64,000 bases of DNA from Kofleriaceae bacterium (GTDB lineage Bacteria > Myxococcota_A > Polyangia > Haliangiales > Haliangiaceae), in the NCBI GenBank assembly GCA_046597055.1, contig JBKJLC010000297.1, positions 39,743 through 103,742 of the forward strand, written 5' to 3'. Shown here in pieces: positions 1,342 through 10,884 of the stretch. The position numbers and the translations under genes were made by a program. The number at the start of each line of letters is the position of its first letter. The stretch's first letter is position 1. The notes under the pieces are model-generated. The model was given only the letters and a program-made list of their open reading frames with translations, did not search any database and was not told the origin of the DNA.

Positions 1342-4332
1342 GTGAAGGTCATCGACCGGGCCCGCCTGGGCTTACGCGAGGGCGCCTCGGACAAGCTGTA
1401 CGAGGCCGACCTGGTCGAGGTGATCGCTGGGCAGTTCGTGGTGAACTTCCGGTTCGGGCGGCGCGGCGCCGCGCTCCGCGACGGCACCAAGACCGCTGTG
1501 CCAGTGCCTGAAGGCCGGGCCCGCGCGATCTTCGCCGCGCTGGTCGCCGAGAAGTCGGCCAAGGGCTACCAGCCGGTGGGCGTCGCCACCACCGCAACGC
1601 CGAGTCCGGCCGCGGCGCCCGCGAACCCCGGCAGCACCCACCAGGCGCTGCTGCACCGGCTGTGGCAGGGTCACCGCGGCGCCGGGCCGTTGCTGCCGGT
1701 GATCCGCCGGGTCGGCGAGCTCGGCGTGCGCGACGCCGAGCCGATCTTGCTCGAGCTGCTCGCCGCCAGCCGCACCAACGCCGAGGCGCCCGACGTGATC
1801 TGGCGCTACACGATCGTCGCCGCCCTGGCGCGGTGCGGATCGAGCGCGGCGGTGCCGGCGCTCGAGCGCCTGCCCGGCGATGGCGCCCAGCCCGATCACG
1901 TGCGCGACCTCGCGCGGCTCGCGCTCGCGATGATCTGGGGCGAGGCCGGCCGCGACCGCACCCGCGCGATGGCGCGCGCGCTGGTGCCACCGACGATCGC
2001 CGGCGATCCGTACCGGGCCGGGCCGACCAGCGCGACCGCCGGGGTCGAGGACCTGCTCGCGCGGGGGCGCACCGCCCAGGCCCGCGACGCGATCATCGGG
2101 CTCTACCTGCTCGACGACAGCGCCGCGCGCGCGGCGGTGCTGTCGGCGGCGCGCGGGCTGCGGCTGGCCGGCGGCGAGTGGCCGATCGTGCGCATGCTGA
2201 TCCGCGGCGCCGAGCTGCGCCGCGACGGCGAGCTGTCGGCCCTGCTCGCGCGACGGATCGAGGATCACCGGGGCGCCACGCCGTGCGGGCCGCGCACGCG
2301 GGCGTACTTTCGACGCCGGATCGCGCGGGTGCTGCGCCGGCTCGGCCAGCAAGGCTCGCCCGACTTCGTGGCGATGGCGGTGCCGCTCCTGCTCGGGTAC
2401 CGCGACGACGATGCCGGCGAGGTCATCACCGGCGCGTACGGCGCGACCTACGACCGGTTCGCGCGTTTTCACGCGCTCAACATGCTGCTGTACGCGCGGT
2501 CGTCGCGCTACCAGCCCGGCCACCACGGCGCCGCGACCTGGCGGTGCGCCCCGTCCTACCGGCCCGGCGGCCCGCCGCCGCGCGACCGCGAGGAGGCGTT
2601 CGGGCCGCTGTGGGACGCCGCGCCCGAGGCGCTGTGGCACCTGGTCCGCGCCGCTCGCGCCGAGCCGGTGGTGTACTTCGCGACCCGCGCGCTGCGCGAC
2701 CAGCGCGGGTTCGTCGCCGCGCTCACCGATGGCGCGCTGGCCGCGGTGCTCGCCGACGGCCACCCGCTGGCCCAGCGGTTCGCGTTCGAGGCGGTGCGCG
2801 AGCGTCCGCTCACGGCCGAGCTGGCCCGCGCCGCGCTGGCCAGCTCGGTGGACGACGCCCACGACTGGGTGCTGGCCTGGGTCGAGCGCCACCCGGACCT
2901 GGCGATCGCCGACCCCGCGCTGGTCGCCCTCCTGATCACCGGCCCGTCGACGCGGGTGCGCGACGGCGGAGTGGCGTTGGTCCGCGGGCGCGGGCTCACC
3001 GACGAGGTCGCGCGCAGCGCCGCGACCCGGGCCCTGGCGATCCTGCTCGGGCTGTCCGACACCCCCGAGGCCGCGGCGCGCGCCGCCGGCGCGGTCGCCG
3101 TGCTGCTGCGCGTGCTGGGCGCGCCGCTGCGCCGGCTGGGCGCTGACGTGCTGCGCGATCTGATCGAACATCCGCTGGCCGCGCTCGGCGAGCTCGCCGG
3201 CGAGCTCATCCTCGCGCACGAGCAGGCGGCGGGGCTCCCGACCGACCTCGCCACCCACCTGCTGGCCTCGCCGCACCCGTCGGTGCGCGCGCTCGGCGCC
3301 CGGGTGCTGGCCCAGACCCCGCCCGAGGTCGCCAAGGGCGATCCCGACGCCCTGGTGACCTTCGCGCTGTCCGGAAACGCCGAGCTGCGCGCCGGCACCC
3401 GCGCGCTGATCGGCGAGGTCGCCCGCCGCTGGCCCGAGGTCGGCCGCGCGATCGCCGACCTCCTGATCGACGCCCTCTTGACCGCCCAGCCCGCGGGCGC
3501 GCCGGCCCACGTGATCGCGCTGCTCCGCCACGAGCTCGCCGGGTGCCTGCCCGCGCGCGACGCGACCACCATCCTGCGCCTGTGCGGCGCGCTGTCGCCG
3601 CACGCGCGCGACGCGGGCGGCCTGCTCCTGCCCCAGCTCGGACCCGACGAGCTCGGCCTCGACGATCTGGTGCGACTCGCCAGCCACGAGTCGGTGCTGG
3701 TGCGGCAGGGCGCGTGGGCGCTGGCGGAGCAGGCCACGCCGCGGTGGAAGCTGGCCCCGGTCGCGCTGGCGCGCCTGTGCGACGCCAGCTGGGACGACAG
3801 CCGCGCCTTCGCGTTCGGCTTCGTGCGGCGCAGCTTCGACGCCGACGATCTCGCCCCCGACGCGATCATCGCGATGTGCGACAGCGTCCGACCCGCGGTC
3901 CAGGATTTCGGCAAGTCGCTGCTGCAAGAACACTTCCGCGGCGCGCACGCGGCGACCTACCTGATCCGCCTCGGCGAGCACCCGGCGCCGGGCGTGCAGC
4001 TGCTGGTGTCGACCTTGCTCGACGCCGCGCGCGGCGATCTGGCCCGCCTGCAGGCCCTGCTGCCGTACCTCTACACCGTGCTCGGCCAGGTCAACCGCGG
4101 CGGCGTGGCCAAGCAGCGCGTGCTCGCGTTCGTGCGCGCCGAGGCGACCGCGAGCGCGGCGTCGGCCCGGCTGCTGGCCCCGCTGCTCGATCACCAGTCG
4201 GCGACGATCGCGATCACCCAGAAGGCGCCGCTGATCGCGACCATGGTCGCGGTTCACGACGCGTATCCCGACGTCCCGCTGCCGATCGCGATCACGCCCG
4301 CGCGTCCGCACCGACCGGGCGGCCCGACGTGA
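1342..4332 (+). CDS. WGR-domain + HEAT/ARM-repeat protein (putative retron-associated)
   Basis: N-terminal WGR-like domain (LREGASDKLY...VVNFRFGRRG...EKSAKGY), then about 900 aa of Ala/Leu-rich helical repeats. Confidence 0.85.
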   Translation: MKVIDRARLGLREGASDKLYEADLVEVIAGQFVVNFRFGRRGAALRDGTKTAVPVPEGRARAIFAALVAEKSAKGYQPVGVATTATPSPAAAPANPGSTHQALLHRLWQGHRGAGPLLPVIRRVGELGVRDAEPILLELLAASRTNAEAPDVIWRYTIVAALARCGSSAAVPALERLPGDGAQPDHVRDLARLALAMIWGEAGRDRTRAMARALVPPTIAGDPYRAGPTSATAGVEDLLARGRTAQARDAIIGLYLLDDSAARAAVLSAARGLRLAGGEWPIVRMLIRGAELRRDGELSALLARRIEDHRGATPCGPRTRAYFRRRIARVLRRLGQQGSPDFVAMAVPLLLGYRDDDAGEVITGAYGATYDRFARFHALNMLLYARSSRYQPGHHGAATWRCAPSYRPGGPPPRDREEAFGPLWDAAPEALWHLVRAARAEPVVYFATRALRDQRGFVAALTDGALAAVLADGHPLAQRFAFEAVRERPLTAELARAALASSVDDAHDWVLAWVERHPDLAIADPALVALLITGPSTRVRDGGVALVRGRGLTDEVARSAATRALAILLGLSDTPEAAARAAGAVAVLLRVLGAPLRRLGADVLRDLIEHPLAALGELAGELILAHEQAAGLPTDLATHLLASPHPSVRALGARVLAQTPPEVAKGDPDALVTFALSGNAELRAGTRALIGEVARRWPEVGRAIADLLIDALLTAQPAGAPAHVIALLRHELAGCLPARDATTILRLCGALSPHARDAGGLLLPQLGPDELGLDDLVRLASHESVLVRQGAWALAEQATPRWKLAPVALARLCDASWDDSRAFAFGFVRRSFDADDLAPDAIIAMCDSVRPAVQDFGKSLLQEHFRGAHAATYLIRLGEHPAPGVQLLVSTLLDAARGDLARLQALLPYLYTVLGQVNRGGVAKQRVLAFVRAEATASAASARLLAPLLDHQSATIAITQKAPLIATMVAVHDAYPDVPLPIAITPARPHRPGGPT

Positions 4333-6395
4333 TCTTCCAGCACCGCTACGCCGGGACCTCGACGGTGCGCCAGGCCGACGACGCGACCGCGATGTCGTTC
4401 GCACCCGACCTCCTGCGTGCGCCGACCTACTTCCGCGGCCGGGTCACCCGCGCGCTCGAGTTTCGCGAGGCGATGAGCGCGCTGCACGACGTGGTGGTGG
4501 CCGACCTGCGCTTCGTGCCCAGGGACCGCACGTCGTACCTGGCGTGGCGCGAGCGCCAGGCTCACGTCGCGCCCGGCGCCGCGGCCGCGCAGCAGGCCGA
4601 GGTCGCGGCCGAGATGGCCCGGCTCGGCGCCGAGTTGACCGAGCTCGATCGCAAGCGCGCGGACCGCCACCGCGCCTTCCACGGCGCGCGCCAGCGCTAC
4701 TTCGACTACCTCTACCAGCGCGACCGCGACCTGTGGTTCAAGCTCGATCCGATCATCACGGTCCACCCCGACCAGGTGTTCTTCGAGTGCTTCTCGCGCG
4801 ACGAGTCGAGCTACGGCCGGCTGGCCGCCTCGTACGACGTCTTCGACCAGCTCGGCGAGCGGGCCAACGGCACCACCAACATCGACTACTCGCAGGGCCT
4901 GTACGACGAGTTCCAGAAGGTCCGCAGCTACAAGACGACCACGCTCGACATCGATCCGTCGGGCTTCGGCGTGGAGACCGCGCTGGAAGAGCGCTTCCGC
5001 GAGGTGAAGATCGACGTGCCCGACAGCTGGGTGCGCGGGCTGCTCCAGGTGTCGAGCGCGATGACGCTGCCGACCCACGTCGTCGATCTGCACCCGATGG
5101 ACGTCCACAACCTTTGCTTCGTGCTGCGCCGCAACCAGGAGCGGTTCGGGCCCCGCTCGCTGCGCTGGCAGCTCACGCCGGGCGCGCCGGCGACGGTCGT
5201 GGTCGAGCCGTGGGGCATCGAGCTCCGCTGCCCGCGCTCGATCTACCGGGGCGATCAGCCGGCCGAGATCCGCATGTGGGGCCGGCGCCGGCTCCACGTG
5301 CTCGAGCGGCTGCTGCCGCGCGCCCGCCGGGTCCGGCTGCACCTGCTCGGCACCGGCCAGCCCACGTTCTGGGTGGTCGATCTCGGCGCGCTGACGTTCA
5401 CGCTCGGCCTGTCGGGCTGGACCCGCAACGACTGGGCCCAGGCCAGCAACTTCGACTTGATGGCGGCGCGCGAGGACGTCGACCTCGACACCCAGGAGCG
5501 CGTGTTTGCTGCGCTCGGCAAGCACTGGCGCGCGAGCCCCGACACGCTGGCGAGCGAGCTGAACCTGAGCCGACCGATCGTCGCGTCGGCGCTGGCCGGC
5601 TGGGTCCAGTGCGGCCGCGCGGTCTACGACCTCGATCAGGGCGTCTATCGCAAGCGCGAGCTGACCGGCGCGCCGCTGCCGGTCGAGCGGCTGCGCTACG
5701 CCAGCGCCCGCGAGGCCGCCGCCGGCCAGCTGGTCCAGCAGGCCAAGATCGCGGTCGACGACGCCAGCACGGCCGATGGCGGCCTGCGCCTGGTCGGTCG
5801 GCTGATGCACCGCGACCGGCTGTTCACCACCGAGCTCGTGCTCGACGTCGACCGGCGGCTGGTCGCCGGCGAGTGCAGCTGCGACCACTTCGTCCGCAAC
5901 CGGCTGCTCCGCGGCCCGTGCGAGCACATGCTGGCCCTGCGCGCGGCCCACCGCCGCGGCGTGTCCGATCTGATCGACCTCGGCGACTACCAGGCGACGT
6001 GCCGCCAGGCGGTGGCGCACGCGACCACGCTGCGCGCCGGCGACCCCGCCGCCGCGGTGCGCGCGCTCACCCGCGCCGCGAAGCTGGTGCCAGCCGGCTC
6101 GCCCGAGTGGGCGCGCCTCCAGGAGGTGCTGGCCGAGACCCACCTCGCCGCCGGCGACCGGGCCACGGCACTGGCAGCCGCCGAGCGCGCGCTGCGCGTG
6201 GCGCCGACCAGCCCGCTCGCGTTGCGCATCCAGCGCGCGCTGCAGGTCGATCCGGCGGCCAGCGCGCCACCCGCCGCCCCTGCCGCGGACGAGCCGGTGG
6301 CCGCGCCGGAGCCGCCGAAGAAGCCCGGCTTCTGGCGCCGCCTGGTCGGGCGGTTCGGCAGCAAGAAACCCCCGCCCACCGACGAGTCGGCATGA
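4329..6395 (+). CDS. SWIM zinc-finger protein with C-terminal TPR-like extension (putative retron-associated)
   Basis: GTG start overlaps the WGR-gene stop (GTGA 4329-4332). Motifs LDPIITVHPD..FFECFSRDESSYG and PDSWVRG; SWIM motif CSC-x12-CEH. Confidence 0.85.
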   Translation: MIFQHRYAGTSTVRQADDATAMSFAPDLLRAPTYFRGRVTRALEFREAMSALHDVVVADLRFVPRDRTSYLAWRERQAHVAPGAAAAQQAEVAAEMARLGAELTELDRKRADRHRAFHGARQRYFDYLYQRDRDLWFKLDPIITVHPDQVFFECFSRDESSYGRLAASYDVFDQLGERANGTTNIDYSQGLYDEFQKVRSYKTTTLDIDPSGFGVETALEERFREVKIDVPDSWVRGLLQVSSAMTLPTHVVDLHPMDVHNLCFVLRRNQERFGPRSLRWQLTPGAPATVVVEPWGIELRCPRSIYRGDQPAEIRMWGRRRLHVLERLLPRARRVRLHLLGTGQPTFWVVDLGALTFTLGLSGWTRNDWAQASNFDLMAAREDVDLDTQERVFAALGKHWRASPDTLASELNLSRPIVASALAGWVQCGRAVYDLDQGVYRKRELTGAPLPVERLRYASAREAAAGQLVQQAKIAVDDASTADGGLRLVGRLMHRDRLFTTELVLDVDRRLVAGECSCDHFVRNRLLRGPCEHMLALRAAHRRGVSDLIDLGDYQATCRQAVAHATTLRAGDPAAAVRALTRAAKLVPAGSPEWARLQEVLAETHLAAGDRATALAAAERALRVAPTSPLALRIQRALQVDPAASAPPAAPAADEPVAAPEPPKKPGFWRRLVGRFGSKKPPPTDESA

Positions 6396-6874
6396 CGCCG
6401 CACCTGCGCGGCGCGGTGATCGCCCTCGTGCTGCTCGGCGCCGGGTGTCGCGACCGAGAGGTCACCCCGGCGGGGGCCGGCAAGGTCGAGCTGATCGAGG
6501 CGCCGGCCGCGATCGCGCTCGCGCCGGTGGTCGCCGGCGAGGTAGTCCGCGCCCGCGCCGACGGCAAGCAGCTGATCGTCTACGTCGGCGCCGCGTGGTG
6601 CGAGCCCTGCAAGTACTTCCACGACGCGGTGACGCGTGGCGAGCTCGACGCCGGGTTCCCGACCCTGCGGCTGCTCGCGTTCGACGCCGACCGCGATCAG
6701 GACGCGCTGCAGGCGGCGGGCTACGACGCGTCGATGATTCCGCTGTTCGCGGTCCCGGCTGCCGACGGCACCCCCAGCGCGCAGCGGATGCAGGGCTCGA
6801 TCAAGGGCCCCGGCGCGGTCGCCGAGATCACGCCGCGGCTGCGCGCGCTGCTCGCGGCCGCCGCCGCCCGCTGA
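6392..6874 (+). CDS. thioredoxin-family lipoprotein
   Basis: ATGA overlap with the SWIM-gene stop; signal peptide with lipobox LGAGC; active site WCEPC. Confidence 0.8.
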   Translation: MTPHLRGAVIALVLLGAGCRDREVTPAGAGKVELIEAPAAIALAPVVAGEVVRARADGKQLIVYVGAAWCEPCKYFHDAVTRGELDAGFPTLRLLAFDADRDQDALQAAGYDASMIPLFAVPAADGTPSAQRMQGSIKGPGAVAEITPRLRALLAAAAAR

Positions 6875-6888
6875 CCGGCGGCGAGGCC

Positions 6889-6918
6889 TTGCGCCGGCCC
6901 GGCGCGCTGGCTGATAGT
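6889..6918 (+). promoter_or_regulatory. candidate sigma70 promoter of retron ncRNA
   Basis: TTGCGC (6889-6894), 18-nt spacer, GATAGT (6913-6918). The predicted start site near 6924 coincides with the first base of the upstream inverted repeat. Confidence 0.45.
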
Positions 6919-6923
6919 CGCGC

Positions 6924-7155
6924 CGCGTGGTGGGTGTGCCTCGTGACCTTGCAACCCGGGCGGCGTTTCGCCGCTCTTGCGATCACGCCATGCATGCCTC
7001 ACTGGCTCGCTCAATACTGTGTGAAATCAGTGCCGTCGCACAGGTTCCGGCTGGGATCCCCTGCGGGAATCGAACGCAGCGCGACGGCACCGATTTCACT
7101 CGAGCCGAGACGATCCAGTCCCAGGAGTGAACGAAGGTAGGCGGCCCACCACGCG
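6924..7155 (+). ncRNA. retron msr-msd non-coding RNA
   Basis: Terminal inverted repeat CGCGTGGTGGG (6924-6934)/CCCACCACGCG (7145-7155); msr-like hairpin 6942-6987; msd-like 19-bp stem 7021-7039/7081-7099 (18/19 paired). Ends 24 bp upstream of a retron RT. Confidence 0.85.
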
Positions 7156-7179
7156 CCTTTTTCCGCTGACCTCATCCTC

Positions 7180-8586
7180 GTGCCCGACGACGCCCCCCCG
7201 CGCAATCGCAAGGAGCTGTACGAGCGCATCGCGCGCGGCGGCAAGGACGAGGTGATCGTCGAGGAGATGATCCGGCTCGGCTTCTGGCCGGCGGCCGGCG
7301 CCCTGCCTGACGATCCGGCCGACGAGCTGCGCCGACGCAGCGAGCTGGTCGGTCGGCTCGTCACGCTGCGCGACCAGGCCGGCCGGCTGCGCAATGCCGC
7401 GCAGCTCGAGCAGGACGCACGCGCCCAGCGGCTCGCCGACGCGCGGCGCAAGCGCGAGGAGACCAAGCAGCGCCGGCTCGCGATCCGCGCGGCCCGTCAG
7501 GTCGCGTGGCGCGAGCGCAAGACCCGCGAGATCGGCTACCTCGGCGCCGGCGTCTCGGCCGGGCTGGGCCCCGCGCGGCCGGGCACACCGGTGGCAACCC
7601 CGGGCCCCGAGCTCCCGGTCCTGCATACCGCCGCTGATCTCGCGGCGGCGATGCAGATCACCGTGGGCCAGCTCCGGTTCCTGGCGTTCGCCCGCGAGGT
7701 TTCGACCACCACCCACTACCGCCGCTTCACGATCCCCAAGCGCACCGGCGGCGAGCGCCTGATCTCGGCGCCCCGCGCGCGGCTGAAGGACGCGCAGCGC
7801 TGGATCCTCGCCAACGTACTCGAGCGGGTGGCGCTGGCCGAGCCGGCCCACGGCTTCGTCCGCGGCCGCTCGATCGTGACCAACGCGGTGCCCCACGTCG
7901 GCGCCGCGGTGGTCGTCAACGTCGACCTCAAGGACTTCTTCCCGACCGTCACCTACCGCCGGGTCAAGGGCCTGTTCCGCCGGCTCGGCTACGGCGAAGA
8001 GATCGCCACCCTGCTCGGCCTCCTGTGCACCGAGCCCGACGTGACCGAGACCGTGCTCGACGGCATCACCTACTACGTCGCGCGCTCGGCCCGGCACCTG
8101 CCGCAGGGCGCGCCGACCAGCCCGGCGATCACCAACGTCATGTGCCGGCGCCTCGATCGGCGCCTCGCCGGCTGCGCCGCCAAACATGGCTTCACGTACA
8201 CCCGCTACGCCGACGACCTGACGCTGTCGAGCAAGGACGCCGCGGCCCCGGTCGGTGCCGTGCTCGCGATCATCCACAAGGTCGCGGTCGGCGAGGGCTG
8301 GACCGTGCATCCCGACAAGGTCCGCGTGCTGCGCAAGGGCCGCCGCCAGGAGGTCACCGGCGTGATCGTCAACGAGCGCCCCGGCATCGCGCGCACCACC
8401 CTGCGCCGGTTTCGCGCGCTGCTCCACCAGATCGAGCGCGACGGCCCCGCCGGCAAGCGCTGGGGCGCCGCCGGCGACGTGTTCGTGTCGGCGCTCGGCT
8501 TCGCCAGCTACGTGGCGATGGTCGATCCGGCCCGCGGCGCCGCCCTGCGCGCCCAGGTCCTCGCCCTGCGCGCGCGCCACCGCTGA
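7180..8586 (+). CDS. retron reverse transcriptase (myxobacterial Mx162-like, long N-terminal extension)
   Basis: Region X NAVPH, DLKDFFP, LPQGAPTSP, YTRYADD, region Y RQEVTG. No maturase or endonuclease domain. Confidence 0.93.
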   Translation: MPDDAPPRNRKELYERIARGGKDEVIVEEMIRLGFWPAAGALPDDPADELRRRSELVGRLVTLRDQAGRLRNAAQLEQDARAQRLADARRKREETKQRRLAIRAARQVAWRERKTREIGYLGAGVSAGLGPARPGTPVATPGPELPVLHTAADLAAAMQITVGQLRFLAFAREVSTTTHYRRFTIPKRTGGERLISAPRARLKDAQRWILANVLERVALAEPAHGFVRGRSIVTNAVPHVGAAVVVNVDLKDFFPTVTYRRVKGLFRRLGYGEEIATLLGLLCTEPDVTETVLDGITYYVARSARHLPQGAPTSPAITNVMCRRLDRRLAGCAAKHGFTYTRYADDLTLSSKDAAAPVGAVLAIIHKVAVGEGWTVHPDKVRVLRKGRRQEVTGVIVNERPGIARTTLRRFRALLHQIERDGPAGKRWGAAGDVFVSALGFASYVAMVDPARGAALRAQVLALRARHR

Positions 8587-8589
8587 GCT

Positions 8590-8657
8590 GAGCGAAGCGA
8601 GCCGGCTCCGCTCCGTACCGATCGGGCCCGGGCTCCGGCCCGCGGCCGACCGATCGA
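8590..8657. repeat. dispersed REP-like palindromic repeat, family A copy 1
   Basis: Near-identical to 24912-24980; just after the RT stop codon. Confidence 0.75.
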
Positions 8658-9621: not shown

Positions 9622-10884
9622 GTGCTCCCGTCGAGCATCCAGCCCACCATCGAACCTCCGAGCGACCGTCCCGCGCCCAGCGTCGCCACCCAGGCGCCGG
9701 TCGCCGAGGTCGCGGAGCGCCCCTACGACCTCCTGCTGCTCGGCACGGTCCTCGCGCTCCTCACGCTCGGCACGATCGAGATCTACGCCGCCACCGCCAG
9801 CCAGGCCGGCGCCCGCCGCGGCGACCCCGGCTTCTTCCTCGAGCGCCAGCTGGTGTTCCTCGTCCTCGGCGGCGTGGCCATGTGGCTCGGCGCGATCATG
9901 GACTACCGGGTGCTGCGCCGGCGCGCCTACCTCTTGCTGCTCGGCTCGCTGCTCGCGCTCGCCGCGACCCTGGCCATGCCGTCCCTCAACGGCGCCCGCC
10001 GCTGGCTCCTGGTCGGCCCGCTCTCGTTCCAGCCGGTGGAGATCGCCAAGCTCGCGCTGATCAGCTACCTCGCCTACTCGCTGTCCAAGAAGGCCGAGAA
10101 GGTGAAGACCTTCACGGTCGGCTTCGTGCCTCACCTGGTGGTGTGCTGCCTGATGATGGGCCTCTTGCTGCTGCAGCCCGATCTGGGCTCGTCGATCATC
10201 CTGGGCGCGACCACCCTGGTGATGCTGTTCGTCGCCGGCGCCCGCATCTCGTACATCGTCCTGGCGATGCTCGCGGGCGCGCCGATCGCCTACCAGCTCA
10301 TCGTGGGCACCCCGTGGCGGCTCCGGCGCTTCATGGCCTACTTCAACCCCGAGGCCTTCGGCGACCGCGAGGCCTACCAGATGGTGCAGGCCCACGTATC
10401 GCTCGGCTCGGGCGGCGCCACCGGCGTGGGCCTGGGCAACTCGCGCCAGTCGCTCGGCTACATGCCCGAGGGCCACAACGACTTCATCCTGGCCCCGATC
10501 GGCGAGGAGCTCGGCTTCCTTGGCGTCGCCCTGGTGCTGGGCCTGTTCATGGTCCTCATCTGGCGCGGCGTGCGCGCCGCCCTCGGCGCCCGCGATCCCT
10601 TCGGCGGCTACGTCGCCCTCGGCATCACGCTCATGTTCGGCCTCCAGGCCCTGCTCAACGTCGGCGTCGTCCTGGGCGTGGTCCCCAACAAGGGCATCAC
10701 CCTGCCGCTGGTCAGCTACGGCGGCACCTCGCTGATCGTCACCATGTTCCTGGTCGGCCTGATCCTCAACATCGGCCACCGCGCCGCCCCCGGCTCCCGC
10801 CGCCGCATCCTCGGCGGCCTTGGCGGCGCCCTGCGCAAGCCCCAGCGCGTCCGCGTCGTCGTCGGCCGCCCCGCCAACGCCTGA
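9622..10884 (+). CDS. ftsW: cell division SEDS protein FtsW
   Basis: NGARRW, SFQPVEIAK, LLQPDLGS, PEGHNDFI, GITLPLVSYGGTS. Confidence 0.93.
   Translation: MLPSSIQPTIEPPSDRPAPSVATQAPVAEVAERPYDLLLLGTVLALLTLGTIEIYAATASQAGARRGDPGFFLERQLVFLVLGGVAMWLGAIMDYRVLRRRAYLLLLGSLLALAATLAMPSLNGARRWLLVGPLSFQPVEIAKLALISYLAYSLSKKAEKVKTFTVGFVPHLVVCCLMMGLLLLQPDLGSSIILGATTLVMLFVAGARISYIVLAMLAGAPIAYQLIVGTPWRLRRFMAYFNPEAFGDREAYQMVQAHVSLGSGGATGVGLGNSRQSLGYMPEGHNDFILAPIGEELGFLGVALVLGLFMVLIWRGVRAALGARDPFGGYVALGITLMFGLQALLNVGVVLGVVPNKGITLPLVSYGGTSLIVTMFLVGLILNIGHRAAPGSRRRILGGLGGALRKPQRVRVVVGRPANA

What the first reader, a model, noticed from the sequence alone, without database searches (positions are those of the whole stretch)
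6889..7155. Unannotated msr/msd RNA with resolvable architecture and its own promoter
Seen: an 11-bp perfect inverted repeat at 6924-6934/7145-7155, extendable by TGCCT(6937-6941)/AGGCG(7139-7143) around a bulged G6936. An msr-type hairpin runs CGTGA..GCAA..GGGCGGCG-TTT-CGCCGCTC..TTGC..TCACG (6942-6987). The msd stem is GTGAAATCAGTGCCGTCGC/GCGACGGCACCGATTTCAC; its single A-C mismatch becomes a G-T pair in the cDNA. Outer pairings are GGCTCG(7004-7009)/CGAGCC(7101-7106) and TCACT/AGTGA, and the 41-nt head carries a sub-hairpin CTGCG/CGCAG. Inference: branching G at 6936 (alternatives 6938 or 6943), msDNA of roughly 140-150 nt with a branched head, transcribed independently of the upstream operon.
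Basis: partly seen in the sequence, partly recalled or inferred. Interest (0 to 1): 0.8.

Follow-up and report, generated by a model that had tools for sequence, protein, structure and literature searches.

The report
Mx162-type retron RNA gene

Summary
Window 6920-7162 (+) is a real retron ncRNA (msr-msd) just upstream of a type XIII retron RT (7180-8586; PADLOC RT_XIII 7e-174). Both type XIII accessory genes lie upstream: WGR-HEAT/ARM at 1342-4332 and SWIM at about 4335-6395. A covariance model found the same RNA next to homologous RTs, 78 matches in 72 sources. 90.1% of cells pair against 57.7% when shuffled, and 63 of 70 pairs show compensatory changes. Conserved: a1/a2, the GGGCGGCG hairpin and the long msd stem. 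Not conserved: CGTGA/TCACG, TCACT/AGTGA and CTGCG/CGCAG; GGCTCG/CGAGCC loses to a covarying rival helix. The invariant G is G6951 (72 of 72 rows with a letter). It sits right after a covarying inner a1/a2 helix (6946-6950/7134-7138) and faces the near-invariant G7133. Divergent relatives carry GAGC or TAGC there, the published priming contexts. Predicted msDNA is about 134-144 nt, starting opposite G7133. The promoter is plausible but weak. New member of a known kind.

The parts
1342..4332 (+). Accessory gene: WGR-like plus HEAT/ARM repeat protein of type XIII retrons
   Evidence: PADLOC WGR_XIII 2.2e-243, residues 1-987 on profile 1-970 of 973
4335..6395 (+). Accessory or effector gene: SWIM zinc-finger protein of type XIII retrons. 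The start is approximate; it lies in the frame of ORF 3543-6395.
   Evidence: PADLOC SWIM_XIII 3.1e-213, residues 265-804 of the 950-aa ORF. A CxC...CxH motif is visible in the translation.
6401..6874 (+). Small thioredoxin-like putative lipoprotein gene (LLGAGC lipobox-like, WCEPC) wedged between the SWIM gene and the ncRNA. Membership in the retron is unknown.
   Evidence: Translation. Weak Pfam Thioredoxin_7 match, 2.8e-4, below the cut-off. Absent at this place in L002, where the ORF just upstream of the ncRNA (3187-5724; not itself scanned against PADLOC) ends 10 nt before the ncRNA match.
6889..6918 (+). Promoter-like element: TTGCGC (3 of 6), 18-nt spacer, GATAGT (4 of 6). Predicted transcript start about 6924-6926.
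   Evidence: Read; not called by the consensus scan. The same TTGCG...GATAGT arrangement occurs in close relatives. 13 of 75 homologs carry a sigma-70-like pair here against 0-3 of 75 at shifted anchors.
6924..6950 (+). a1, composite 5' arm: 6924-6935, bulged G6936 and T6937, 6938-6940, unpaired 6941-6945, 6946-6950
   Evidence: Helix 1 is 93.0% paired with 14 of 14 pairs compensatory; helix 2 is 87.4% paired with 5 of 5 pairs showing some compensatory change. Coordinates mapped.
6951..6951 (+). Predicted branching (priming) guanosine, in the context CTT-G-CAA
   Evidence: G in 72 of 72 rows with a letter (75 full-length rows). It lies immediately 3' of covarying helix 2. The aligned motif is GAGC in Archangium-like loci and TAGC in other Myxococcota loci. 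Published priming contexts are TAGC, CAGC and GAGC (Simon 2019, passages).
6958..6976 (+). msr hairpin GGGCGGCG-TTT-CGCCGCTC
   Evidence: 99.2-99.3% paired, 4-5 of 8 pairs compensatory
6978..6994 (+). Possible second msr hairpin (weak)
   Evidence: Only 59-64% paired
6990..7133 (+). msd, the template for the msDNA. It is copied from G7133 leftwards. The stop at about 6990-7000 is inferred. It contains the lower stem 7001-7011/7108-7119, the upper stem 7021-7039/7081-7099 and the apical region 7040-7080.
   Evidence: Helices 6, 8 and 9 are 93.6-96.9% paired and almost all pairs are compensatory. G7133 is G in 73 of 75 rows. The DNA fold of the reverse complement gives -39.7 kcal/mol, z = -5.09.
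7134..7155 (+). a2, the 3' arm pairing with a1
7158..7162 (+). T-run directly after a2
   Evidence: A T-rich stretch follows a2 in 50 of 75 homologs against 8 of 75 at a control offset
7180..8586 (+). Retron reverse transcriptase, type XIII, 468 aa with an N-terminal extension of about 180 aa
   Evidence: PADLOC RT_XIII 7e-174. Pfam RVT_1 5.4e-22 at residues 185-396. NAVPH, VTG and YADD are visible in the translation.

Best explanation
The stretch is the msr-msd gene of a type XIII (Mx162/Sa163/Ne144-like) retron.

Proposed mechanism, step by step:
1. An RNA of about 232-243 nt (about 6924 to 7155-7162) is transcribed, either from a weak promoter at 6889-6918 or by read-through from the upstream genes.
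2. It folds so that a composite a1 (6924-6950) pairs with a2 (7134-7155).
3. The RT encoded at 7180-8586 recognises the msr part (hairpin 6958-6976).
4. The RT uses the 2'-OH of G6951 to prime DNA synthesis on G7133.
5. It copies leftwards through the long msd hairpin and stops near 6990-7000.
6. After removal of the template RNA, a branched RNA-DNA molecule remains, carrying a hairpin msDNA of about 134-144 nt.
7. This molecule presumably works together with the SWIM and WGR-HEAT/ARM proteins encoded upstream.

Shown here: the family assignment of all three proteins, the conserved and covarying RNA structure, and the invariant G at the inner end of a1.
Inferred: priming at G6951, the two ends of the msDNA, the promoter, and any role in defence.
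For: Proteins: RT_XIII 7e-174 and WGR_XIII 2.2e-243; SWIM_XIII 3.1e-213. The retron RT motifs NAxxH, VTG and YADD are in the translation.

RNA conservation: RNAalifold on a plain MAFFT alignment of 8 upstream regions gave 70 pairs, 30 of them compensatory, including the inner helix ACCTT/AAGGT. Model R1 found 58 full-length + strand matches in 52 sources: 91.1% of cells paired against 61.2% shuffled (0 of 500 shuffles reach it) and 36-44% when slid. Model R2 found 78 matches in 72 of 81 sources: 90.1% against 57.7%.

Branching G: G6951 is G in 72 of 72 rows with a letter. G6936 is a gap in 74 of 75 rows. The pair next to the G (6950/7134) reads UA 58, AU 11, GC 3, CG 1, other 2.

Compensatory motif pairs, read from raw rows: CCTT-G/G-AAGG, CCGA-G/G-TCGG, CTGA-G/G-TCAG, TCTAA-G/G-TTAGA, CTG-G/G-CAG and TTA-G/G-TAA, and CUA-G/G-UAG.

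Literature: the priming G lies in or right after the inner end of the a1 stem, in TAGC, CAGC (Mx162, Sa163) or GAGC (Mx65) (Simon 2019, passages). Type XIII includes Mx162, Mx65, Sa163 and Ne144 and has a published ncRNA consensus (Mestre 2020, Table 1 passages and section 16).
Against: - No experiment bears on this locus; branching, msDNA ends and transcription are all inferred.
- The context TTGC is not among the priming contexts listed for characterised retrons.
- A4 and A5 were fitted to the model's structure, so pair counts lean towards it.
- G6951-C6980 and C6952-G6979 can also pair (91.4% paired, no compensatory change). The G might therefore be held in a helix.
- Fold energy does not distinguish the strands.
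- The window's promoter match is weak and was not called by the scan.
- I could not align a named Mx162 record, so the link between the experimentally mapped G and this column rests on motif and position only.
Confidence: 0.8

Rival explanations
1. The a1/a2 stem ends at 6934 (or 6941), the bulged G6936 (or 6938 or 6943) is the branch point, and the msDNA of 140-150 nt starts around 7140-7143.
For: In this one sequence G6936 is bulged between two helices in the MFE fold. The retron rule 'G at the end of a1' fits if only the 11-bp perfect repeat counts as a1.
Against: G6936 is absent from 74 of 75 homologs. 6938 is G in 33 of 75 rows and covaries as a paired base. 6943 is G in 10 of 75 rows. 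The stem continues inward through a covarying helix to 6950/7134.
Confidence: 0.06
2. The branch point is G6945, in the unpaired stretch 6941-6945. It aligns with the G of CAGAC or TAGAC in the closest relatives, a CAGA- or TAGA-like context.
For: Close relatives L002-L009, L023 and L043 carry CAGAC or TAGAC at the aligned place. CAGA is the priming context of Ec67.
Against: That column is G in only 25 of 75 full-length rows. It lies in a bulge, not at the inner end of the stem, and five more pairs follow it.
Confidence: 0.05
3. The RNA is conserved, but in this genome the retron is inert, or the structure serves only as a leader or attenuator of the RT gene (a1/a2 followed by a T-run) and no msDNA is made.
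For: A T-rich stretch follows a2 in 50 of 75 homologs, so the long-range stem resembles a terminator. No RNA or msDNA data exist for this organism.
Against: All parts are intact. The RT frame is open for the full length with its catalytic motifs. The family includes the retrons in which msDNA was discovered. The msd stem keeps pairing while its sequence changes freely, as expected of a template hairpin.
Confidence: 0.05

Closest known systems
Retron-Mxa1 (Mx162) of Myxococcus xanthus and Retron-Sau1 (Sa163) of Stigmatella aurantiaca (type XIII, RT clade 10)
   Same: The RT family is the same and has the N-terminal extension. The ncRNA lies directly upstream of the RT. It has a long composite a1/a2, msr hairpin(s) and one long msd hairpin. 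The precursor is of similar size: about 232-243 nt here against 241 nt reported for Mx162. The host is a myxobacterium.
   Different: The priming context here is TTGC, against CAGC reported for those two. The predicted msDNA is shorter, about 134-144 nt against 162 and 163. Sequence similarity to the Myxococcaceae-like ncRNAs is low: R1 missed them and only R2 found them. I could not fetch a named Mx162 record to align.
Type XIII retron system as defined by Mestre et al. 2020 (RT + ncRNA + SWIM/DEDE protein + WGR-HEAT/ARM protein)
   Same: All four components are present and in one orientation. A type XIII ncRNA consensus is already published (Table 1 and section 16).
   Different: A thioredoxin-like lipoprotein gene (6401-6874) sits between the SWIM gene and the ncRNA. 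It is not there in relative L002. I did not see the paper's Figure 2B or Figure S1, so I cannot say how closely their consensus matches mine.
Retron-Eco1 (Ec86) and other enterobacterial retrons
   Same: The general layout is shared: a1/a2, priming G at the inner end of a1, msr hairpins, msd hairpin and a downstream RT.
   Different: The RT clade, accessory proteins and ncRNA sequence all differ. The msd is much longer and a1/a2 is composite. No Rfam family matches.

Membership tests
Retron ncRNA (msr-msd), type XIII | Lies next to and on the same strand as a retron RT of clade 10 / type XIII | tested here: met
   The ncRNA ends at 7155-7162 and the RT starts at 7180. RT_XIII 7e-174.
Retron ncRNA (msr-msd), type XIII | Terminal inverted repeats a1/a2 that pair in the transcript | tested here: met
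   14 of 14 pairs compensatory, 93.0% paired over 77 distinct rows
Retron ncRNA (msr-msd), type XIII | Conserved guanosine at or just after the inner end of a1, in an NAGC-like context | tested here: met
   G6951 is invariant (72 of 72 rows) and directly follows helix 6946-6950/7134-7138. The context is TTGC here and GAGC or TAGC in relatives. The TTGC context is not on the published list.
Retron ncRNA (msr-msd), type XIII | One to three msr hairpins and one long msd stem-loop | tested here: met
   Hairpin 6958-6976 is 99% paired. The msd stems are 94-97% paired with compensatory change. A second msr hairpin is only weakly supported.
Retron ncRNA (msr-msd), type XIII | 2'-5' branched msDNA is actually produced | not testable with these tools
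   Only assembled contigs of public runs were on hand
Retron RT | RT domain with YxDD, plus the retron-specific NAxxH and VTG motifs | tested here: met
   RVT_1 5.4e-22. NAVPH, VTG and YADD were read in the translation. The motif definitions come from Mestre 2020 and Simon 2019 passages.
Type XIII retron system | Linked SWIM/DEDE protein and WGR-HEAT/ARM protein | tested here: met
   SWIM_XIII 3.1e-213; WGR_XIII 2.2e-243
Rfam RNA families | A match at gathering score to any curated family | tested here: not met
   0 matches in the whole window. The only weak match is mir-734, 18.1 bits against a gathering score of 100, E = 0.85, which I read as chance.

The most novel reading that the evidence does not exclude
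Most type XIII retrons may prime from a G in a TTGC context that faces a near-invariant template G. That configuration is not among those validated so far. The a1/a2 stem plus U-tract may also act as a terminator or attenuator that sets the ratio of ncRNA to RT message. In some lineages the same RT may be served by tandem arrays of two or three ncRNAs, each with its own a1/a2 and usually its own msd stem, so that one RT would make several different msDNAs.
Probability: 0.3. Interest if true: 0.5.

Novelty: new member of a known kind. Interest (0 to 1): 0.2.

Why it matters
For this window it gives a correct annotation of an otherwise unannotated RNA gene and completes a four-part type XIII retron. 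More generally, the 78-sequence alignment fixes the likely priming G and the first template base for a retron type that is widespread but barely studied at the bench. That makes a clean mutational test possible: G6951 against G6936. The finding itself is ordinary for retron biology. The family, its gene neighbourhood and a consensus ncRNA were published in 2020, and its founding members in the 1980s.

Tried and rejected
- Rfam. Gathering scan of the whole window: 0 matches. Permissive scan of 6850-7250: only a chance mir-734 match.
- Consensus promoter and terminator scan of 6500-7500: 0 promoter-like and 0 terminator-like sites.
- Sequencing runs. No RNA holder is listed. All 19 runs are kept as assembled contigs, so starts, ends and depth of an RNA or msDNA cannot be read.
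- Named Mx162 record. The single genome-contig scan kept the best 80 of 201 relatives, none named Myxococcus xanthus. The 14 control genomes of the genome search do not ring for Myxococcus. No direct alignment to the experimentally mapped retron was therefore made.
- Retron census preprint (PMC10849725): no passage on type XIII or Mx162 outside the reference list.
- Earlier notes of this scan: nothing near this place.
- One paper look-up failed on a badly formed search term and was repeated correctly.
- Literature search for natural tandem ncRNA arrays ('two ncRNAs', 'tandem ncRNA', 'multiple ncRNAs', 'two msr-msd', 'second ncRNA' together with 'retron'). One retron paper came up, and its passage concerns injected guide and retron RNAs, not natural arrays. 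This one search does not show that such arrays are unpublished.
- Rejected helices. GGCTCG/CGAGCC loses to 7001-7011/7108-7119.

Full report
**What is in the sequence.**
- a1/a2 at 6924-6934/7145-7155: 11 nt, perfect.
- The extension 6937-6941/7139-7143 around G6936.
- The hairpin 6942-6987.
- The msd stem 7021-7039/7081-7099: 19 nt with one A/C mismatch.
- The smaller pairings.

The 241-nt RNA folds far better than shuffles (z = -5.28, 0 of 200). So does the opposite strand (z = -6.25). An 11-bp perfect inverted repeat alone is not unusual in this GC-rich stretch: 41 of 300 dinucleotide shuffles have one. The case therefore rests on context and comparison.

**Context.** The ORF at 7180-8586 is a retron RT.
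- Pfam RVT_1 scores 5.4e-22 at residues 185-396.
- PADLOC RT_XIII scores 7e-174.
- NAVPH, VTG and YADD are in the translation.

Upstream, on the same strand, lie three genes:
- A WGR-HEAT/ARM gene at 1342-4332 (WGR_XIII 2.2e-243).
- A SWIM gene at about 4335-6395 (SWIM_XIII 3.1e-213).
- A small thioredoxin-like putative lipoprotein gene at 6401-6874.

The long ORF 4544-6874 is mostly a GC-rich artefact. Only its last 157 or so codons look like a gene.

Mestre et al. 2020 define type XIII as exactly this set of proteins. They list Mx162, Mx65, Sa163 and Ne144 as its characterised members and state that it has its own ncRNA consensus (Table 1 passages and section 16). This is therefore the family in which msDNA was first found.

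**Comparison.** The RT has 201 relatives among candidate stretches of one-genome-per-species contigs. The best 80 were kept. They come from Myxococcota, Acidobacteriota, Bacteroidota, Cyanobacteria, Planctomycetota and Betaproteobacteria.
- A plain MAFFT alignment of 12 upstream regions already shows blocks of identity flanking a stem whose sequence changes freely.
- RNAalifold on 8 of them gave 70 pairs, 30 compensatory.
- Model R1 found 72 matches, 6 of them short minus-strand echoes of the hairpin. At a stricter threshold it found 58 full-length + strand matches in 52 sources.
- On that alignment 91.1% of cells pair, against 61.2% shuffled (0 of 500 shuffles reach it) and 36-44% for slid partners.
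- Model R2, built from it, found 78 matches in 72 of 81 sources, including Archangium-like loci that R1 had missed.
- On the R2 alignment 90.1% of cells pair against 57.7%, and 63 of 70 pairs have compensatory change.

These alignments are fitted to the model, which favours its structure. The first consensus, however, came from a structure-blind alignment.

- Supported: a1/a2 (93.4%), the three middle pairs of the extension, the GGGCGGCG hairpin (99.3%) and the msd stem (95.9%).
- At background level: CGTGA/TCACG (41.5% and 44.2%), TCACT/AGTGA (47.0%) and CTGCG/CGCAG (42.0%).
- GGCTCG/CGAGCC (77.4%, almost no compensatory change) competes with 7001-7011/7108-7119, which is 93.6% paired with 8 of 9 pairs compensatory.
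- GC(A)/(T)GC at 6951-6953/6978-6980 can pair in most rows, but without any compensatory change.

**The branching G.**
- G6936 and T6937 are an insertion peculiar to this window. Column 6936 is a gap in 74 of 75 full-length rows.
- 6938 covaries as a paired base. 6943 is G in 10 of 75 rows.
- The a1/a2 stem continues inward after a 5-nt unpaired stretch (6941-6945), as ACCTT 6946-6950 with AAGGT 7134-7138.
- The pair next to its end reads UA 58, AU 11, GC 3, CG 1, other 2.
- Raw rows show matched changes: CCTT-G with G-AAGG, CCGA-G with G-TCGG, CTGA-G with G-TCAG, TCTAA-G with G-TTAGA, CTG-G with G-CAG, and TTA-G with G-TAA. One search adds CUA-G with G-UAG.
- The base right after this helix, G6951, is G in all 72 rows that have a letter there. 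The base facing it, G7133, is G in 73 of 75 rows.

Simon et al. [quoted passage not shown] They give the context as TAGC in most retrons, CAGC in Mx162 and Sa163, and GAGC in Mx65 (passages). The aligned motif is GAGC in the Archangium-like loci and TAGC in other Myxococcota loci. It is TTGC here and in most of my set.

I therefore place the branch at G6951, with about 0.8 confidence. No named Mx162 record could be aligned, so this remains an inference.

**Ends of the msDNA.** With G6951 priming on G7133, the DNA 5' end is the complement of G7133. The stop is not predictable from sequence. It should lie between the msr hairpins (the last ends at 6994) and the lower msd stem (which begins at 7001), because the 3' ends of msr and msDNA overlap by a few bases; the overlap is 8 in Mx162. 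That gives about 134-144 nt. The reverse complement of 6990-7133 folds as DNA into one long hairpin (-39.7 kcal/mol, z = -5.09).

**Promoter.** TTGCGC (6889-6894), 18 nt, GATAGT (6913-6918) matches 7 of 12 consensus positions and was not called by the scan.
- Close relatives keep TTGCG, 17-18 nt, GATAGT or CGTAGT at the same distance from a1.
- In those relatives the first hexamer lies inside the end of the upstream ORF, so coding constraint may explain part of its conservation.
- Massilia-type loci have clear TTGnnn, 16-18 nt, TATACT pairs at the same place.
- Over all rows, 13 of 75 carry a sigma-70-like pair here against 0-3 of 75 at shifted anchors. The window itself fails that test.

A promoter just upstream of a1 is thus plausible for the family and weakly supported here. 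Independence from the upstream genes is open.

**Public reads.** Nineteen runs hold part of 6400-8600, all as contigs. One soil run holds the whole stretch with two differences and may be the source of the assembly. One run, guessed but not recorded to be RNA, has a single 164-nt contig equal to 6964-7127 and nothing else of the 2.2 kb. I report what it covers. It does not show transcription.

**Distribution.** RT_XIII is found in 10 of 12 other genomes of the same genus that were searched. The ncRNA model matches in 11 of 151 genomes sampled across the phylum, under stricter filters.

**Verdict.** This is a real, intact and correctly oriented retron msr-msd of a known type. Its branch point, several minor helices and the certainty about the promoter are not.

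Noticed in passing
L014 100-331 and 413-642; L031 5447-5691 and 5712-5942; L034 888-1120 and 1308-1538; L015 5049-5294, 5320-5558 and 5584-5821; L022 5389-5637 and 5733-5981; also L097 1123-1382 and 1501-1764: Two or three full-length type XIII ncRNAs stand in tandem upstream of one RT in 5 of 72 sources with a match, plus one locus from the phylum search. Copies share the scaffold (73-93% identical) but have different a1/a2 arms (5-21 of 28 positions identical). Most also differ in the msd stem (17-34 of 44-45 positions identical); one L015 pair is identical at 45 of 45. One literature search found no description of natural arrays.
   Followed up: partly
window 7158-7162 and the same place in homologs: A T-rich run directly follows a2 in 50 of 75 homologs against 8 of 75 at a control offset. 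With the long-range a1/a2 stem it resembles an intrinsic terminator placed between the ncRNA and the RT start.
   Followed up: partly
window 6401-6874: A thioredoxin-like putative lipoprotein gene (WCEPC motif, lipobox-like LLGAGC) sits 6 nt after the SWIM gene and 50 nt before a1. Relative L002 has no such gene there.
   Followed up: partly
window 6964-7127: A run whose library text says metagenomic RNA-Seq (the kind is a guess) holds one 164-nt contig identical to this part of the ncRNA and nothing else of 6400-8600. It is not evidence of expression.
   Followed up: no
window 7044-7050 and 7071-7076, and aligned columns: The tip of the msd hairpin carries sequence motifs (TTCCGG ... TCGAA) that are conserved across phyla while the stem below varies freely. 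This may be a recognition element in the msDNA or its template.
   Followed up: no
L068 4766-5001 and ORF 5017-7098: In Archangium-like loci the ncRNA lies about 1 kb upstream of the part of the RT that aligns to this window's RT. The RT frame is open from right after the ncRNA (693 codons), which implies a much longer N-terminal extension.
   Followed up: partly
window 6859-6866 / 6876-6883: A perfect 8-bp GC-only inverted repeat brackets the stop codon of the thioredoxin-like gene. No T-run follows it.
   Followed up: no
window 9622-10884: An FtsW/RodA/SpoVE family gene (Pfam 4.3e-99) lies about 1 kb downstream of the RT, so the retron sits among housekeeping genes.
   Followed up: no
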